From a virus, in the IMG/VR virus record IMGVR_UViG_3300030397_000824, positions 37,047 through 101,046 of that record: a DNA stretch of 64,000 bases; one strand, written 5' to 3'. Position 1 is the stretch's first letter, and every line of letters begins with the position of its first letter. The notes beneath the pieces are model-generated. The model searched no databases. It was not told the DNA's origin and saw only the letters and a list, made by a program, of their open reading frames with translations. Positions 38,335 through 42,500 of this stretch are shown here, piece by piece. Made by a program: the position numbers and the translations under genes.

Positions 38335-38757
38335 TCATCGTTCAAATGTTCTTTTACGGTCACCACCCTTCTCGCAGGGGTGGTGACCGTATTTGTAAAA
38401 ATACTTCTTTGCACGAACGAACTTCCCTTTAACCCAGAATCCAAACTCTCTTTTTTCTGGTCCGCAAAGTAAAATAGTCCAACACGGTTCGTCGATGACG
38501 ACAGTGTGGCGATGGAGTGCCGGACGGTAGGCGAAAGACCATCGAGGGCGGAATACGGTTTCATCTTTACCGAGATCGGTGTAGCTACCTGAGATTACCC
38601 AACTGATAAACCACCATGGGTGGTCGTGTTTGTAGAGATCATCATCAGAGGAGAACCAATGATGTATGCGGATGGAAAAGAAGTAAAAATCAAAAACCCA
38701 ACGCTCCATGTAGGGGCATTCGGTTAAACCAAGTTGTTCTTTCTATGTAAATTTCAT
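38335..38757 (-). pseudogene. Cupin-like (HDHPW family) gene with in-frame TAG at codon 5; readthrough candidate or pseudogene
   Basis: AGGA RBS + ATG AAA TTT ACA TAG AAA GAA... in frame with MERW...HDHPW...HRH ORF; downstream ATG 38709 lacks an RBS. Confidence 0.6.
38355..38395 (+). terminator. 14-bp hairpin, probable terminator of gp25-gp6 operon
   Basis: TACGGTCACCACCC/GGGTGGTGACCGTA then TTTG, 20 nt after gp6 stop; lies inside antisense cupin CDS. Confidence 0.6.
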
Positions 38758-38773
38758 GTTAGTTCCTGAAAAG

Positions 38774-39018
38774 TGGGTACCCGGGGATGGATTCCAACCA
38801 CCGACACATGCTACGTGGTAGACCTTTGTCCCATTCCCCCTCCCGTTCAATTCCATCCATCGTCCTTCCCGTATGCATCGGCGGGATTTCTGTTGGACAG
38901 CTTAATAGGGCTGAGTCCGGTAAGATTGAGCGGTAACTTTCACAGTGTACATCCGTTACGGCACCACTTCTCAATCAGTATCTACAAGCACTGCTCTGGG
39001 CTACTGAGCTACCCGGGC
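38774..39018 (-). ncRNA. tRNA-shaped RNA with 174-nt insertion replacing the anticodon loop
   Basis: Acceptor GCCCGGG/CCCGGGT, D-stem GCTC/GAGC, stem GTGCT/AGCAT, variable GTGTC, T-arm GGTGG-TTGGAAT-CCATC, ACCCA end; C19-G56 swap. Confidence 0.8.
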
Positions 39019-39034
39019 ATAACTGTATTCTGTA

Positions 39035-39063
39035 ATTATGGTTTCACTGATTCAAAATGTCAA
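39035..39063 (-). promoter_or_regulatory. Promoter of the tRNA-like RNA
   Basis: TTGACA-N17-CATAAT, 16 nt upstream of G1. Confidence 0.75.
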
Positions 39064-39434
39064 TGTTTCTTTGGAATAAATTCAACCTCGCGAATCGAAT
39101 CGAAAACAATATAGGTCTCAAACAATGATTTGGGGATTTCGTTGCATGCTAACTGAAGTGGATGTTTCTCGTCGCAGAGTTCGGTAACGTCGAGATGGCC
39201 AACAGCGCCCCATGCGTTCTGTGAATTCAAATCATTTCCGTCATCCCAGAAATCAACAGAAATGGTTTTCCGTGAATATCCTCCATCTTTCCTCAAGTGT
39301 ACCGTAAGAGTACCAAGGGAAGGTAATCCGTCCTTTATGTTGTGGGTTATTCTTGCTATGCCCCGTTTTGGCCAACCACAGGTATAGTCTGGCTCCACAC
39401 CCACATCTTCGATGACGATAAAAGTTTCAAACAT
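39060..39434 (-). CDS. Hypothetical protein, probably leaderless
   Basis: Start moved to ATG 39434, 6 nt after a -10 box. Confidence 0.65.
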   Translation of the reverse strand: MFETFIVIEDVGVEPDYTCGWPKRGIARITHNIKDGLPSLGTLTVHLRKDGGYSRKTISVDFWDDGNDLNSQNAWGAVGHLDVTELCDEKHPLQLACNEIPKSLFETYIVFDSIREVEFIPKKH

Positions 39435-39440
39435 ATGGCG

Positions 39441-39469
39441 ATAATATTCAATATTATGGAACAAGTCAA
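39441..39469 (-). promoter_or_regulatory. sigma70-type promoter (leaderless geometry)
   Basis: TTGACT-N17-TATTAT-N6-ATG. Confidence 0.7.
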
Positions 39470-39534
39470 TAAGGTGGATTTTCGTCAGGAAAGTGATTAC
39501 CTTAATCATGTGGTTATTCGTCGTGAGCGAGGGG

Positions 39535-39540
39535 TAAATA
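39535..39540 (+). promoter_or_regulatory. Late promoter
   Basis: GTAAATAA upstream of 3385-aa gene. Confidence 0.6.
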
Positions 39541-39568
39541 ACCGATGAATCTAGGACATTAATAATCC

Positions 39569-42500
39569 ATGGCAAAAGAACGCAGAGCCTTTAACAACTA
39601 TCCTGATAGTCTTCGAACCCGGCAGAACAATCAAGAGACATTCATTGCGGATGATCCCTCGTTTGAGCCGGAACAAGCGGATTTCCTGAATGGCTTCATT
39701 GGTGATACCTCCGTCCTCACTGCCGAGGATTTGGAGCGCACACCCCCTATTCTTGAGGGCACTGCCGAGCGTCAGAAATATCAACTGGCGGTTGGTGCAA
39801 CGTTTATTAATCCTGATACCCAAGAGCGCGAAAGCATTGCGTCTTACACTGACCTTACTAATCAAATTGAGGCAAATGGTGGCGACGTAAGCGACCCAAA
39901 CCGTGTCTTTGCCGTAGATTTCTATGCTTGGACCCCACCAATTGATTACGACAAACACATCAATTTTTCCCGTTACCTATGGTTGGGCGCTGGAACGGCG
40001 GATGTGCAGGGTGAGTATGTTACCAAAGAGATTTCTCACTCGAAGACAGTAATTCATGAATGGGACGGTGTCACATTAACTGCTCATGCCGCCCTCATCG
40101 AAAATGGCCTACCGGCAATCATGCCAGCAGGAACATACGTCGAGGATGCCAGTACTATTCAGCGATTGGTCTACCGTTCCGACGGTGTATCATGGCAATT
40201 ACTGAATCTCGAAGTTGTCTCGGATGTTCCTACAGATTTCTCGGAATCCCCAGTCCCCGCATATTTTTATGTGGCACGCACGGGTCCAGATTACCAACGA
40301 CCAGTCGTTTGGAAATACAGTGACGGGGCCGGACGATGGATTCCAATGCCGGTAGTGGTCAATCCCGAGACTCCAGAAACTCCGCGTACTGGAATGATCT
40401 GGGAAGACAGCCGACTCGCTGGTGAGCGTGTTCTAAAATTCTTTAGCAATGGTGCATTTCAAAACCTCACATACACTGCAACTGACGGTCCTCCCGGAAC
40501 GGTCGGAACAGATGGGGAATTCATATACGATATTCGTGAATATGAAACGTTGACGGATGAGTGGTCACGAAATAACTGGTGGAAGCATCAGGAAGATTTG
40601 TCTCCAGCAGACCGCACCGCAACCAACAACGAAGATCAAGCCATCCGACCTATTCTAGAATTCTGGGATGGTATTGAATCGGTTGCCGGTGATATCAAGG
40701 ACTCGCGAAATGATAGTCCGGTATACAAGAAGTATGCAATTGATACCACCACTTCCGAGGGCTTTGATACTGGCGAATCGACCACCATTTTTGAATATGA
40801 GCGGGGAACCGGATTGGATGATCCTGTTTTGGGATTTCCTCTTACTTTCAACTCGTCTGGTGAATTTGTCTTCACCCTGACACTGGAAGATGATCCGTCT
40901 TCTGCGATTGGATACCACTATTTCTTAGATACCAATACTGGATTGTTGCATAGCATCTGGCACAAGTCGGATGTGTTGACCGAACAGTCCGTCGATGCCA
41001 ATGGATTGTATGATGTTCCTGTTAGCATCTCATCCAATGCTGACCATGATATCCTAACCACGGCGTCACGCTCCAGAATGCTCCGTCACATGACGAGTGT
41101 TATTGGTGCTCAAGTAGGCTTTGAGGGCTCGCTGACGGGCCAGAACTCGTATCGATGGACGGATCGCAGTCCTACCCTTGGTGCAACCATAATCGACGCT
41201 GAGGAGACATTGCTGCGCACACTAGGAACGTTGCAGGACGTTCGGTTGAATTTCCCTGATGCAATCCGGCGTGAGGCAAAAGATTACAACAAGGTTTTGT
41301 TCCGATTCACCAACAAGTTGAATCAATTGTGGGACAACCTGTCGTTCACAAATGGTAACGGGTCTCTATACCCGGGATTGACTGCTAGCGAAGCGTGTGA
41401 TGCGGTTTTGACATCTATCTTCATGGGCCGAACGGAAGATTTCCCGTACTTCAATTCTGATATGGGAACGTTCATCGAGACCATCGTAACAACTGGAACA
41501 GCCACGGTTCTTGATCCGAATGCGAAACCAATTTTTATTCCACCATCACCACCGCGTGTTGGTGCATCGCCCACATTTACTCCGCGCTCGTATGAACAGC
41601 GCAGCGGACAAACTGTACTGCTTGGTCACGAAGGAACTCTCATTCCATCATTTGCTGACGAACGAGATTTGATTTGGTTGGAATTCCAAACGCGTCTCTT
41701 TAATGCAGTTCCGGATAATTTCAAGGTCGAGGATTCTACATTCTCAGCCCGTTTCAACAAGGCAGGTCTGACACTAACGGACCATTATGGAAATTATATT
41801 CCTCCGACCTCTATCGAACCGGTTGATGATGTGGTTACAGACTTCAATGCTGTTGTCGGTCCAGTTGACGGATTCCGTGTATTCTCTACAGATACGGCGG
41901 TCTTTGCTGTTTTCAGTGGTGGCCAATGGCTGACTCGCGCTGCAATTGTTGATGACATTTTCCTGAATAACGCAGATAGTGAATACTACATCTATAATGG
42001 ACTCGGAACATTCTTGATTGATCGTTGGGATCGACCATTTTCTTTTGAGTACTCTACAAATGAATTCAGACAAATCATCCGGCGCGATTTTGAAAGATTC
42101 ATCGTCTTCCGGGAACAGGATTTCAGTGAAAATACCACATTCGATGATACCGACCCCTTCACTTGGAACTATCGTTCCGCAGGCGTGGAAGGACATTATG
42201 TCGGAATCTACAATCGTGTATACAATACATCACGGCCTCACAGTTCACCTTGGGAAGTCATGGGTTATTCTGTTGAGCCAGACTGGTGGCGTACTCAGTA
42301 TGTTCCCGACAGCACTGCTGCCGATGGATCGCCACGCTATGGTTCCGGCCATGGCATGTGGACAGATTTCTCGGGCGGTATCGTCGCTCATCCAACTGGA
42401 TCAATCCAAAACGATCAATTCATCATGGCGGGTCCGATTCCAGTCGATGCCACAGGAGAACTCTTAGACCCTATTGCCGCTGGTGTTGTTGATGAAACAA

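What the first reader, a model, noticed from the sequence alone, without database searches (positions are those of the whole stretch)
38774..39018. tRNA-shaped RNA whose anticodon loop is replaced by a 174-nt structured domain
Seen: on the minus strand, a complete tRNA frame (acceptor GCCCGGG/CCCGGGT+A, D-stem GCTC/GAGC, anticodon stem GTGCT/AGCAT, 5-nt variable loop, T-arm) surrounds 38813-38986. The insert is highly paired: GTAGA/TCTAC extends the anticodon helix; also GATTGAG/CTCAATC, GGACTCAGC/GCTGTCC and TCCCG/CGGGA. The invariant elbow pair G19-C56 is swapped to C19-G56, a double change suggesting selection on the L-shape. It has its own TTGACA-N17-CATAAT promoter. Known: G1.U72 with A73 matches the alphaproteobacterial tRNA-His type that lacks G-1. 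No excision I could find gives a U33 loop, and group I cores and tmRNA features are missing. Inference: a tRNA-mimic ncRNA with tmRNA-like architecture (aminoacylatable decoy, ribosome-rescue/recoding RNA, or bait for host anticodon nucleases), or a tRNA with an unknown intron type.
Basis: partly seen in the sequence, partly recalled or inferred. Interest (0 to 1): 0.88.

Follow-up and report, generated by a model that had tools for sequence, protein, structure and literature searches.

The report
Phage tRNA-shaped RNA with structured insert
A giant T4-like phage encodes, from its own promoter, an RNA with a complete, evolutionarily maintained tRNA body. A 174-base folded domain sits where the 5' half of the anticodon loop should be. 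It belongs to a widespread, undescribed family that most likely is not a decoding tRNA but a stable tRNA-scaffolded RNA of unknown role.

Summary
On the minus strand at 38774-39018 there is a full tRNA frame around a 174-nt insert, preceded by a TTGACA-N17-CATAAT promoter.

**tRNA frame.** I collected 19 relatives from related phage contigs. In them the frame is backed by many compensatory changes. The elbow pair 19:56 covaries in three states (G:C, A:U, C:G) without exception.

**Insert.** It always sits between nt 31 and a loop remnant ending NAC-R-Y, which is Val-like. Relatives carry 142-182-nt inserts with four covarying helices. Two apical loops each hold a 4-mer that stays self-complementary through change (GAUC/GUAC/GCGC and AGCU/UGCA/CGCG). 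These are candidate kissing loops.

**Caveat for the window.** Its own insert shares this layout (P1, P2 with UGUACA, P5 with AUGCAU). However, a covariance model of the family does not detect it, and it is not more stable than shuffles.

**What it is not.** No Rfam family, group I core, tmRNA or BHB features were found. More distant relatives have anticodon loops of 6-13 nt or lack U33, so decoding seems lost across the clade.

**Best reading (about 0.55).** An unspliced, processed, tRNA-scaffolded ncRNA. An unknown kind of intron remains possible (about 0.2).

**Context.** The gene is syntenic with a small cupin gene that carries a conserved in-frame TAG. This scan has noted other unclassified inserts in phage tRNA genes on other DNA.

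The parts
39035..39063 (-). Sigma-70-type promoter: TTGACA (39058-39063), 17-nt spacer, CATAAT (39035-39040). It would start transcription about 10 nt before the RNA's first base.
   Evidence: 11 of 12 matches. TTGACA-N16-18-TAnnnT is present at the same place in 7 relatives with diverged spacers.
38774..39018 (-). The whole tRNA-shaped RNA gene: 241-nt body to A73 plus CCCA.
   Evidence: The frame is supported by covariation.
38987..39018 (-). 5' tRNA half: acceptor strand GCCCGGG, U8 A9, D arm (GCUC-AGUAGCCCA-GAGC, with G18 C19), A26, and anticodon-stem strand GUGCU.
38813..38986 (-). 174-nt insert plus loop remnant. In order:
- lead U
- P1 5' strand GUAGAU, 38980-38985
- P2, 38970-38976 with 38924-38930, whose expanded top holds UGUACA at 38946-38951
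- window-specific hairpin, 38910-38918 with 38895-38901
- P5, 38882-38886 with 38867-38871, with AUGCAU at 38873-38878 in its loop
- GGAAUUGAAC, 38845-38854
- P1 3' strand GUCUAC, 38818-38823
- unpaired tail CACGU, 38813-38817. Together with the two preceding bases it reads ACCACGU, that is C34 A35 C36 G37 U38.
   Evidence: The layout is shared with relatives. There is no significant sequence or covariance-model match to their inserts.
38778..38812 (-). 3' tRNA half: anticodon-stem strand AGCAU, variable loop GUGUC, T arm GGUGG-UUGGAAU-CCAUC (G56), acceptor strand CCCGGGU, and A73.
38774..38777 (-). 3' trailer CCCA. ACCCA follows U72 in the 8 members whose flanks were printed, and ACCC in all 15 tabulated members. 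A U precedes base 1 in those 8 members.
38335..38757 (-). Co-oriented downstream gene, with no terminator in between: a small metal-binding cupin. It has AGGA-N6-ATG, then AAA TTT ACA, then an in-frame TAG at 38743-38745 that aligns with a conserved Trp codon.

Best explanation
The locus is a gene for a stable, unspliced, non-decoding tRNA-scaffolded RNA.

**Shown**
- It has a conserved sigma-70-type promoter.
- It has a complete tRNA body whose stems, and whose tertiary 19:56 elbow pair, are kept by compensatory change.
- A structured domain is inserted exactly between nt 31 and the 3' half of the anticodon loop.
- In relatives that domain has four covarying helices and two apical loops that stay self-complementary through change.

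**Inferred**
- The host polymerase transcribes it early, together with the cupin gene downstream.
- The tRNA body directs 5' cutting by RNase P: U at -1 and ACC after position 72 are the usual determinants (my own knowledge). It also directs 3' trimming with CCA repair, and protects the RNA from decay.
- The insert removes the U-turn side of the loop, so the RNA cannot decode.
- The conserved A35-C36-purine37 and A73 are the main ValRS identity elements in E. coli (my own knowledge). They keep it recognisable to a tRNA-Val-binding protein, either ValRS or a host tRNA-targeting factor.
- The two palindromic loops pair with the same loops of a second copy, giving a symmetric dimer.

**Most likely role**
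An early decoy or sponge for a tRNA-binding host factor, about 0.3 on its own.
For: **Frame**
- Acceptor, anticodon and T stems show compensatory changes.
- 19:56 is G:C, A:U or C:G in all 15 members tabulated.

**Promoter**
- Conserved in position and consensus.

**Insert in relatives**
- 87% of cells are paired, against 47% or less when partners are slid.
- 20 of 28 pairs carry double changes, and 0 of 500 shuffles reach the observed score.
- Loop 4-mers are self-complementary in 70 of 70 cells. The inner pair reads UA, AU or CG and the outer pair AU, UA or CG.
- The window has UGUACA and AUGCAU at the matching apices.
- UUGCAA sits in apical loops of two other subfamilies.

**Decoding relaxed across the clade**
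- The homologous tRNA upstream of the cupin gene has loops of 6, 8, 9, 10 or 13 nt, or has G33, A33 or C33. The ..ACAU or ..ACAC end is kept.
- Large inserts therefore lie on a continuum with small expansions that cannot be introns.

**Not mobile**
- No insert-less copy was found among close relatives. Two insert-bearing paralogs stand in tandem in L129.

**No ribozyme match**
- No known ribozyme or intron model matches any member.
Against: - No RNA data exist: no RNA run was listed. Transcription, processing and the absence of splicing are therefore all inferred.
- The window's own insert is not detected by the family covariance model.
- It is not significantly similar in sequence to any relative (z at most 2.2).
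- It folds no better than shuffles. Its structure rests on layout analogy only.
- Some relatives would give a canonical 7-nt Val loop with U33 if the insert were cut out exactly: AUAACAU in L023 and L125, UUCACAU in L049, GUGACGU in L100. This fits an intron.
- NAC conservation could be inherited rather than selected.
- The loop palindromes have few independent changes.
- No binding partner is known.
Confidence: 0.55

Rival explanations
1. It is an intron-bearing tRNA-Val. The insert is an intron of an undescribed kind, lying at or near position 31/32. It is removed either by its own catalysis or by a phage or host endonuclease plus an RNA ligase, giving a decoding tRNA.
For: - The retained tail reads N-A-C-purine-pyrimidine in the window and in every relative tabulated except L017, L025 and L135, which read GACUU.
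- Exact excision gives canonical loops with U33 in L023, L125, L049, L063 and L100. CU+GACAC results in L031.
- 'Enigmatic' introns have been reported in megaphage tRNAs (PMC6784885).
- T4-type phages typically encode RNA repair enzymes (my own knowledge).
Against: - In the window no cut gives U33. Most of its family give G33, A33 or C33, or a tail of only 4-6 nt.
- There is no consistent splice-site rule: the 5' exon ends in C, U or G, and the insert ends in G, U or A.
- No group I or group II signal was found.
- Inserts of 31 nt (L047, L054) and loop expansions of 1-6 nt at the same place cannot be ribozymes.
- No presence/absence polymorphism occurs among close relatives.
- No Rnl1 or RtcB was found in the contig, but it is only 28% complete.
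Confidence: 0.2
2. It is mainly a cis-acting 5' element of the cupin mRNA. The tRNA shape serves as a processing or stabilising signal, or the insert acts as a sensor that controls expression of the downstream gene. This could include read-through of that gene's TAG codon.
For: - The tRNA-like gene lies 15-70 nt upstream of the cupin gene in most loci, in the same orientation and with no terminator.
- Synteny holds across cupins down to about 45% identity.
Against: - In L023 and L126 the RNA is separated from the cupin gene by other sequence.
- RNase P and 3' processing would detach it from the mRNA.
- TAG and TGG versions of the cupin gene occur with the same RNA types.
- Selection on the elbow pair is not needed for a mere cleavage signal.
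Confidence: 0.12
3. It is a decaying tRNA gene hit by an insertion, that is, a pseudogene or a selfish DNA element with terminal inverted repeats.
For: - The window's insert has no detectable homolog.
- It has no excess folding stability.
- P1 could be read as short terminal inverted repeats.
Against: - The promoter is conserved.
- Compensatory changes occur throughout the frame and at 19:56, including a C:G state shared by the window and L129a.
- Internal helices are conserved in 19 relatives.
- There is no target-site duplication.
Confidence: 0.05

Closest known systems
Bacteriophage T4 species 1 RNA (rnaC; AF158101 70908-71046)
   Same: A small stable RNA of a T4-type phage, encoded in the tRNA region. 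It has a T arm and an acceptor-like stem around a large internal structured part. Its function is still unknown (PMC9697503).
   Different: rnaC has no canonical D arm or anticodon stem, and its acceptor has U.U mismatches. There is no sequence or model similarity: R1 found nothing in L124. No cupin neighbour is annotated beside it.
'Enigmatic' introns in Lak megaphage tRNA genes (Devoto et al. 2019, PMC6784885)
   Same: Huge-phage tRNA genes interrupted by conserved inserts that fit no known intron class.
   Different: The Lak inserts were placed so that excision restores a normal tRNA, and alleles with and without the insert exist. Here no excision restores U33 in the window, and no insert-less allele was seen among close relatives.
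tmRNA (RF00023)
   Same: A tRNA-like acceptor and T arm joined to a large structured domain. It is processed like a tRNA.
   Different: tmRNA lacks a D stem and an anticodon stem, and carries a tag reading frame and pseudoknots. ARAGORN and Rfam find no tmRNA here.
Group I introns in bacterial and phage tRNA anticodon loops (e.g. Azoarcus tRNA-Ile, about 205 nt; my own knowledge, cf. PMC3984707)
   Same: A structured insert of similar size in the anticodon loop of a tRNA gene.
   Different: - No match to the Rfam group I model even at E <= 10 or in relatives.
- No U at the 5' splice site and no terminal G rule.
- The insert lies 5' of position 32, not inside or after the anticodon.
Homo-oligomeric bacterial RNAs held by kissing loops (ROOL, GOLLD, OLE; PMC12286853)
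   Same: Structured non-coding RNAs, some of them phage-associated, whose self-complementary loops build symmetric RNA-only assemblies (abstract).
   Different: Those RNAs are much larger and are not built on a tRNA. Oligomerisation here is only inferred from palindromic loops.
Engineered 'tRNA scaffold' for recombinant RNA expression (Ponchon and Dardel 2007; my own knowledge, not checked here)
   Same: A foreign structured RNA placed in the anticodon arm of a tRNA, so that the tRNA body gives processing and nuclease resistance.
   Different: That is a laboratory design. This would be a natural counterpart, and it retains part of the anticodon loop.

Membership tests
tRNA (RF00005) | 7-bp acceptor stem, D arm, 5-bp anticodon stem, T arm with a UUxRAnY loop, and a 19:56 elbow pair | tested here: met
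   All stems are present and covary in relatives. 19:56 is C:G here.
tRNA (RF00005) | 7-nt anticodon loop with U33 and a purine at 37, allowing decoding | tested here: not met
   A 174-nt insert is present. Every possible 7-nt join has C33 or G33. Relatives mostly lack U33 too.
tRNA (RF00005) | Score at or above Rfam gathering (29 bits), or a call by ARAGORN at default settings | tested here: not met
   No hit in the window. The relative L003:3752-3909 scores 33.4 bits with the insert skipped.
Group I intron (RF00028) | Conserved P3-P8/P4-P6 core detectable by the Rfam model | tested here: not met
   No match at E <= 10 over 38500-39300. No match at E <= 1 in ten relatives' loci.
Group I intron (RF00028) | 5' exon ends in U (U.G in P1) and the intron ends in G | tested here: not met
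   Boundaries vary among relatives.
tmRNA (RF00023) | tRNA-like domain without an anticodon arm, plus a tag-peptide reading frame with a resume codon | tested here: not met
   ARAGORN tmRNA search and Rfam are both negative. A D stem and an anticodon stem are present.
Archaeal/eukaryal protein-spliced tRNA intron (bulge-helix-bulge) | Two 3-nt bulges on opposite strands separated by a 4-bp helix, usually at position 37/38 | tested here: not met
   The junction is a 1-nt 5' bulge, a 6-bp helix and a 5-nt 3' tail. The position is 31/32.
Insert family defined here (model R1: P1, P2, P3, P5) | Significant match to the covariance model built from 13 relatives | tested here: not met
   19 relatives score 72-143 bits. 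The window's insert gives no match on its strand with filters off.
Insert family defined here (model R1: P1, P2, P3, P5) | Same host gene, same insertion point, same synteny, a closing helix P1, and self-complementary motifs in the P2 and P5 apices | tested here: met
   The frame is near-identical to L002, L137 and L139.
T4 rnaC (species 1 RNA) | Sequence or structure homology to T4 rnaC | tested here: not met
   R1 finds nothing in L124. The resemblance is architectural only.
tRNA-Val identity (E. coli rules: A35, C36, A73) | A35, C36 and A73 present | tested here: met
   The tail ..C-A-C-G-U and A73. NAC is present in the window and every tabulated relative. Whether ValRS accepts it cannot be tested with these tools.

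The most novel reading that the evidence does not exclude
This is a new class of phage RNA. A tRNA body is kept fully foldable and processable. It carries a domain that blocks decoding and makes the RNA pair with itself through two palindromic kissing loops. The resulting dimeric tRNA mimic would still show Val identity elements. It would be made early in infection to trap or mislead a host tRNA-binding factor, either a defence nuclease or ValRS.
Probability: 0.3. Interest if true: 0.85.

Novelty: new variant of a known kind. Interest (0 to 1): 0.72.

Why it matters
Phage tRNA genes are now seen as weapons against host tRNA-cutting defences. However, the old T4 'stable RNAs' and the odd tRNA genes of huge phages have stayed unexplained.

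This family gives a well-defined case, found in many environments:
- a tRNA body under clear selection, down to a three-state covarying tertiary pair;
- an anticodon loop that is dispensable for decoding;
- an added folded domain with signs of self-pairing.

If the RNA is not spliced, it is a natural version of the laboratory tRNA scaffold and a new kind of viral tRNA mimic. If it is spliced, it is a new kind of bacterial-virus intron. Either answer can be reached with a northern blot. The linked cupin gene, with its conserved amber codon at a Trp position, adds a second testable puzzle about suppressor tRNAs in phages that otherwise use the standard code.

Tried and rejected
- **Known RNA families.** Rfam at gathering and at E <= 10 on the window, and on relatives' loci: only chance-level miRNA and snoRNA matches.
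- **ARAGORN.** The default run finds nothing. With introns allowed it proposes tRNA-Pro(GGG) with a 145-nt intron and a long variable arm. I rejected this because the anticodon stem it uses has mismatches and is not conserved.
- **tRNA-His.** Rejected; see the first-reader section.
- **tRNA-Leu.** The same acceptor GCCCGGG/CCCGGGU-A occurs in phage tRNA-Leu(UAG) genes. Rejected because the variable loop is 5 nt.
- **Amber suppressor.** CUA occurs in P1 of the window (UCUAC) but not in relatives. TAG and TGG cupin genes occur with the same RNA types.
- **Coding.** The overlapping ORFs of 71 and 113 aa have no Pfam match.
- **Phage GenBank records.** No DNA match.
- **RNA evidence.** No RNA run was listed.
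- **Splicing enzymes.** Rnl1 and RtcB were not found in the contig. It is only 28% complete, so this is uninformative.
- **Cupin function.** Only generic small metal cupins (TM1459-like) match, with no link to RNA.
- **Full-length covariance model.** A model of the insert plus anticodon stem was used instead.
- **Pairing of the loop tail with the P2 loop.** Works for type B only, so it was dropped.

Full report
**Context.** The window lies in a 103-kb IMG/VR virus contig estimated at 28% complete, so the genome is roughly 370 kb. It comes from aquatic metagenomes. The standard genetic code fits the contig. Relatives' contigs carry T4-type genes, for example gp13. The locus lies between two huge plus-strand genes of 1526 and 3385 aa. 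It sits in a 1.2-kb stretch whose genes run on the minus strand.

**Observation.** On the minus strand, 39018 to 38774 reads as a complete cloverleaf around a 174-nt insert at 38813-38986. Default ARAGORN and all 4227 Rfam models find nothing, even at E <= 10 locally. ARAGORN with introns allowed and its threshold at 95% returns this locus as the only candidate in the contig. The TTGACA-N17-CATAAT promoter is present. The whole RNA is not more stable than dinucleotide shuffles, z = -0.40. Energy therefore does not support 'highly paired'. The case has to be made by comparison.

**Relatives.** I used the downstream 124-aa ORF as an anchor and collected about 110 loci from viral and metagenome contigs. 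More came through exact-protein look-ups. A script that looks for a tRNA frame with any loop length found a tRNA or tRNA-like gene just upstream of the homologous gene in many loci.

Nineteen relatives form the window's own family. Their frames are near-identical and their inserts are 142-182 nt. In the eight members whose flanks were printed:
- each has a TTGACA-N16-18-TAnnnT promoter with a diverged spacer;
- each has U at -1;
- each has ACCCA after U72 (ACCC in all 15 tabulated members).

Synteny is conserved: giant gene, small ORF, RNA, cupin, then the 1526-aa DUF8360 gene.

**The tRNA frame is under selection.** Across 15 sequences:

| Pair | States seen |
|---|---|
| 1:72 | A-U, G.U, G-C |
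| 3:70 | C-G, G-C |
| 6:67 | G-C, U-A, A-U, C-G |
| 27:43 | G.U, C-G |
| 28:42 | U-A, C-G |
| 50:64 | G.U, C-G |
| 51:63 | U-A, A-U, G-C |

The tertiary pair 19:56 is the strongest single fact.
- G:C in L023, L125, L126 and L133.
- A:U in L002, L018, L129b, L017, L020, L021, L025, L135 and L134.
- C:G in the window and, separately, in L129a.

No member is mismatched.

**Where the insert sits.** In every member the 5' strand of the anticodon stem runs, with 0-1 nt between, into a closing helix P1. After the 3' strand of P1 come 4-8 unpaired bases, and then the 3' strand of the anticodon stem. That tail ends NAC-purine-pyrimidine:
- AGUACAU, AUAACAU, (G)AUACAU and ..AAACGA in relatives;
- ACCACGU in the window;
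- GGACUU in L017, L025 and L135, where U follows the GAC.

The insert therefore replaces the 5' half of the loop, and a Val-type 3' half is retained.

More distant homologs of the same syntenic tRNA show the same pattern without a large insert:
- normal loop: CUCACAC (L043);
- 7-nt loops without U33: AGUACAU, CGAACAA, CGGACUG;
- 6 nt: UUACAU;
- 8 nt: UUCUACGA;
- 9 nt: AGAUCACAU, CAUACAGUA;
- 10 nt: UUGGAAACAU;
- 13 nt;
- inserts of 31, 70, 85-129 nt.

This continuum is my main argument that the clade has given up ordinary decoding, and that the large domain is an elaboration rather than an intron.

**Structure of the insert in relatives.** RNAalifold on 13 sequences predicts P2, P3 and P5 with double changes in 18 of 26 pairs. 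I built a covariance model of the anticodon stem plus insert (R1). It scores 19 relatives at 72-143 bits.

On the model-based alignment:
- 87.4% of cells pair, against 27-47% when partners are slid by 1-3 columns;
- 20 of 28 pairs have changes on both sides;
- no shuffle reaches the observed covariation.

The alignment was fitted to this structure, so it leans towards it. The slid controls and the independent RNAalifold result argue that the signal is real. P1 alone reads CCAGA/UCUGG, CCAAA/UUUGG, CUAAG/CUUAG, CUGA/UCAG, CCGGAC/GUCUGG and, in the window, GUAGAU/GUCUAC.

**Palindromic loops.**
- The apex of P2 holds G-N-N'-C, read as GAUC, GUAC or GCGC.
- The 7-nt loop of P5 holds N-G-C-N', read as AGCU, UGCA or CGCG.
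- Counted as pseudo-pairs, 70 of 70 cells are self-complementary, against 17-63% when slid. The variable pair takes three Watson-Crick states in each loop, plus one U.G cell in the P2 loop.
- These 4-mers cannot pair within one loop, and they are not in register with the stem's own symmetry.
- The simplest reading is pairing with the same loop of a second molecule.
- The window has UGUACA in the P2 top and AUGCAU in the P5 loop.
- UUGCAA occurs in apical loops of two unrelated insert subfamilies.

The number of independent changes is small, so this is a lead and not a proof.

**The window's own insert is an outlier.**
- R1 does not find it, even with filters off.
- Local alignment to every relative is within the range of shuffles, while relatives match each other at z = 3-25.
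- The nearest protein relative (L137, 91% identical cupin) carries a standard type-A insert.

What the window shares is layout:
- P1;
- an expanded P2 whose top resembles that of L023 (GCCGUAA ... AUGUACA);
- a P5-like hairpin;
- GGAAUUGAAC, where relatives have GGAAUGAAC.

It is thus a diverged or partly replaced version. Its fine structure is unsupported by covariation.

**What it is not.**
- Group I, group II, tmRNA and YrlA models do not match.
- The junction is not a bulge-helix-bulge.
- The His reading fails on 1:72 variation and the NAC remnant.
- Splice-site rules are inconsistent among members.
- A few members would yield perfect Val loops on exact excision, so an intron of unknown kind keeps about 0.2.

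**Neighbour gene.** The downstream protein is a small metal cupin. It matches PHROG 4786 'cysteine dioxygenase'. The predicted model has pLDDT 95, and its best structural matches are TM1459-type cupins. This gives no functional link to RNA.

Its start region is remarkable: RBS, ATG, 0-4 codons, TAG, then a conserved N-terminus. The commonest form is ATG AAA TTY ACN TAG. In TAG-less homologs the aligned codon is TGG (MEFRW.., MKTIW..). Several related loci carry tRNA(CUA) genes nearby. The RNA type does not track TAG versus TGG, so I treat this as a separate finding.

**Comparison with known systems.** The closest functional analogue is T4 rnaC, a stable tRNA-region RNA with a T arm and acceptor-like stem. 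Its function is still unknown. Lak megaphage tRNA 'introns' are the closest published report. Earlier notes of this scan describe other unclassified inserts in phage tRNA genes on other DNA. None of them touches this family.

**Verdict.** This is a real, conserved, undescribed RNA gene family. The window's copy is a divergent member. The mechanism is inferred and not shown.

Noticed in passing
window 38743-38757 (-); also L002, L003, L004, L018, L023, L125, L137 and about 30 more loci: The cupin gene starts RBS-ATG-(0-4 codons)-TAG, most often ATG AAA TTY ACN TAG, and continues in frame into a conserved N-terminus with no other start codon. In homologs without TAG the aligned codon is TGG (Trp). 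The contig otherwise fits the standard code. tRNA(CUA) genes lie nearby in L003, L004, L034, L036, L073 and L107.
   Followed up: partly
L129:192-399 and L129:418-625: Two insert-bearing tRNA-like paralogs stand in tandem, 18 nt apart, upstream of one cupin gene. Type A has a GAUC loop and C19:G56. Type B has a GUAC loop and A19:U56.
   Followed up: partly
L013:528-649(-) and L013:142-232(-) (contig of L004): Other tRNA-like genes of a related huge phage. One has a 43-nt D-loop insert and a 19-nt anticodon loop holding a UUCG-capped hairpin. The other has a UUCG-capped hairpin in the middle of the anticodon loop, which could be read as tRNA-Phe(GAA) with a 19-nt insert at 37/38.
   Followed up: no
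L015:223-372 (= L003 region): A class II-like tRNA with an insert of about 78 nt stands directly before a tRNA(CUA) and the 92-nt-insert tRNA-like gene. That makes three odd tRNA genes in a row upstream of the TAG-bearing cupin gene.
   Followed up: no
L110:about 1190-1420; similar in L108, L083 and L072: A conserved RNA-like element of about 190 nt whose ends pair over about 20 bp (AGAGUGCUUACGGUGUGUGG ... CCGCACACCGCAAGCACUCU). It lies upstream of the cupin gene in a more distant clade. No Rfam match at E <= 0.1.
   Followed up: partly
window 38774-38778 and 39019; same in 7 relatives: In the 8 members whose flanks were printed, the base before G1/A1 is U and the 3' end reads A-CCC-A rather than A-CCA. 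ARAGORN draws an 8-bp acceptor stem with U(-1):A73, which would leave C as discriminator followed by CCA.
   Followed up: no
window 39060-39575 (-): An upstream 171-aa ORF (TTG start as listed) has no Pfam, PHROG or NCBIfam match. Relatives have a 124-141-aa ORF in the same place.
   Followed up: no
L005:3861-3934: In a complete 241-kb relative, the tRNA upstream of a TAG-less cupin gene has the loop GAGAUCC (A33, C37). This could also be drawn as a 6-bp stem with a 5-nt loop.
   Followed up: no
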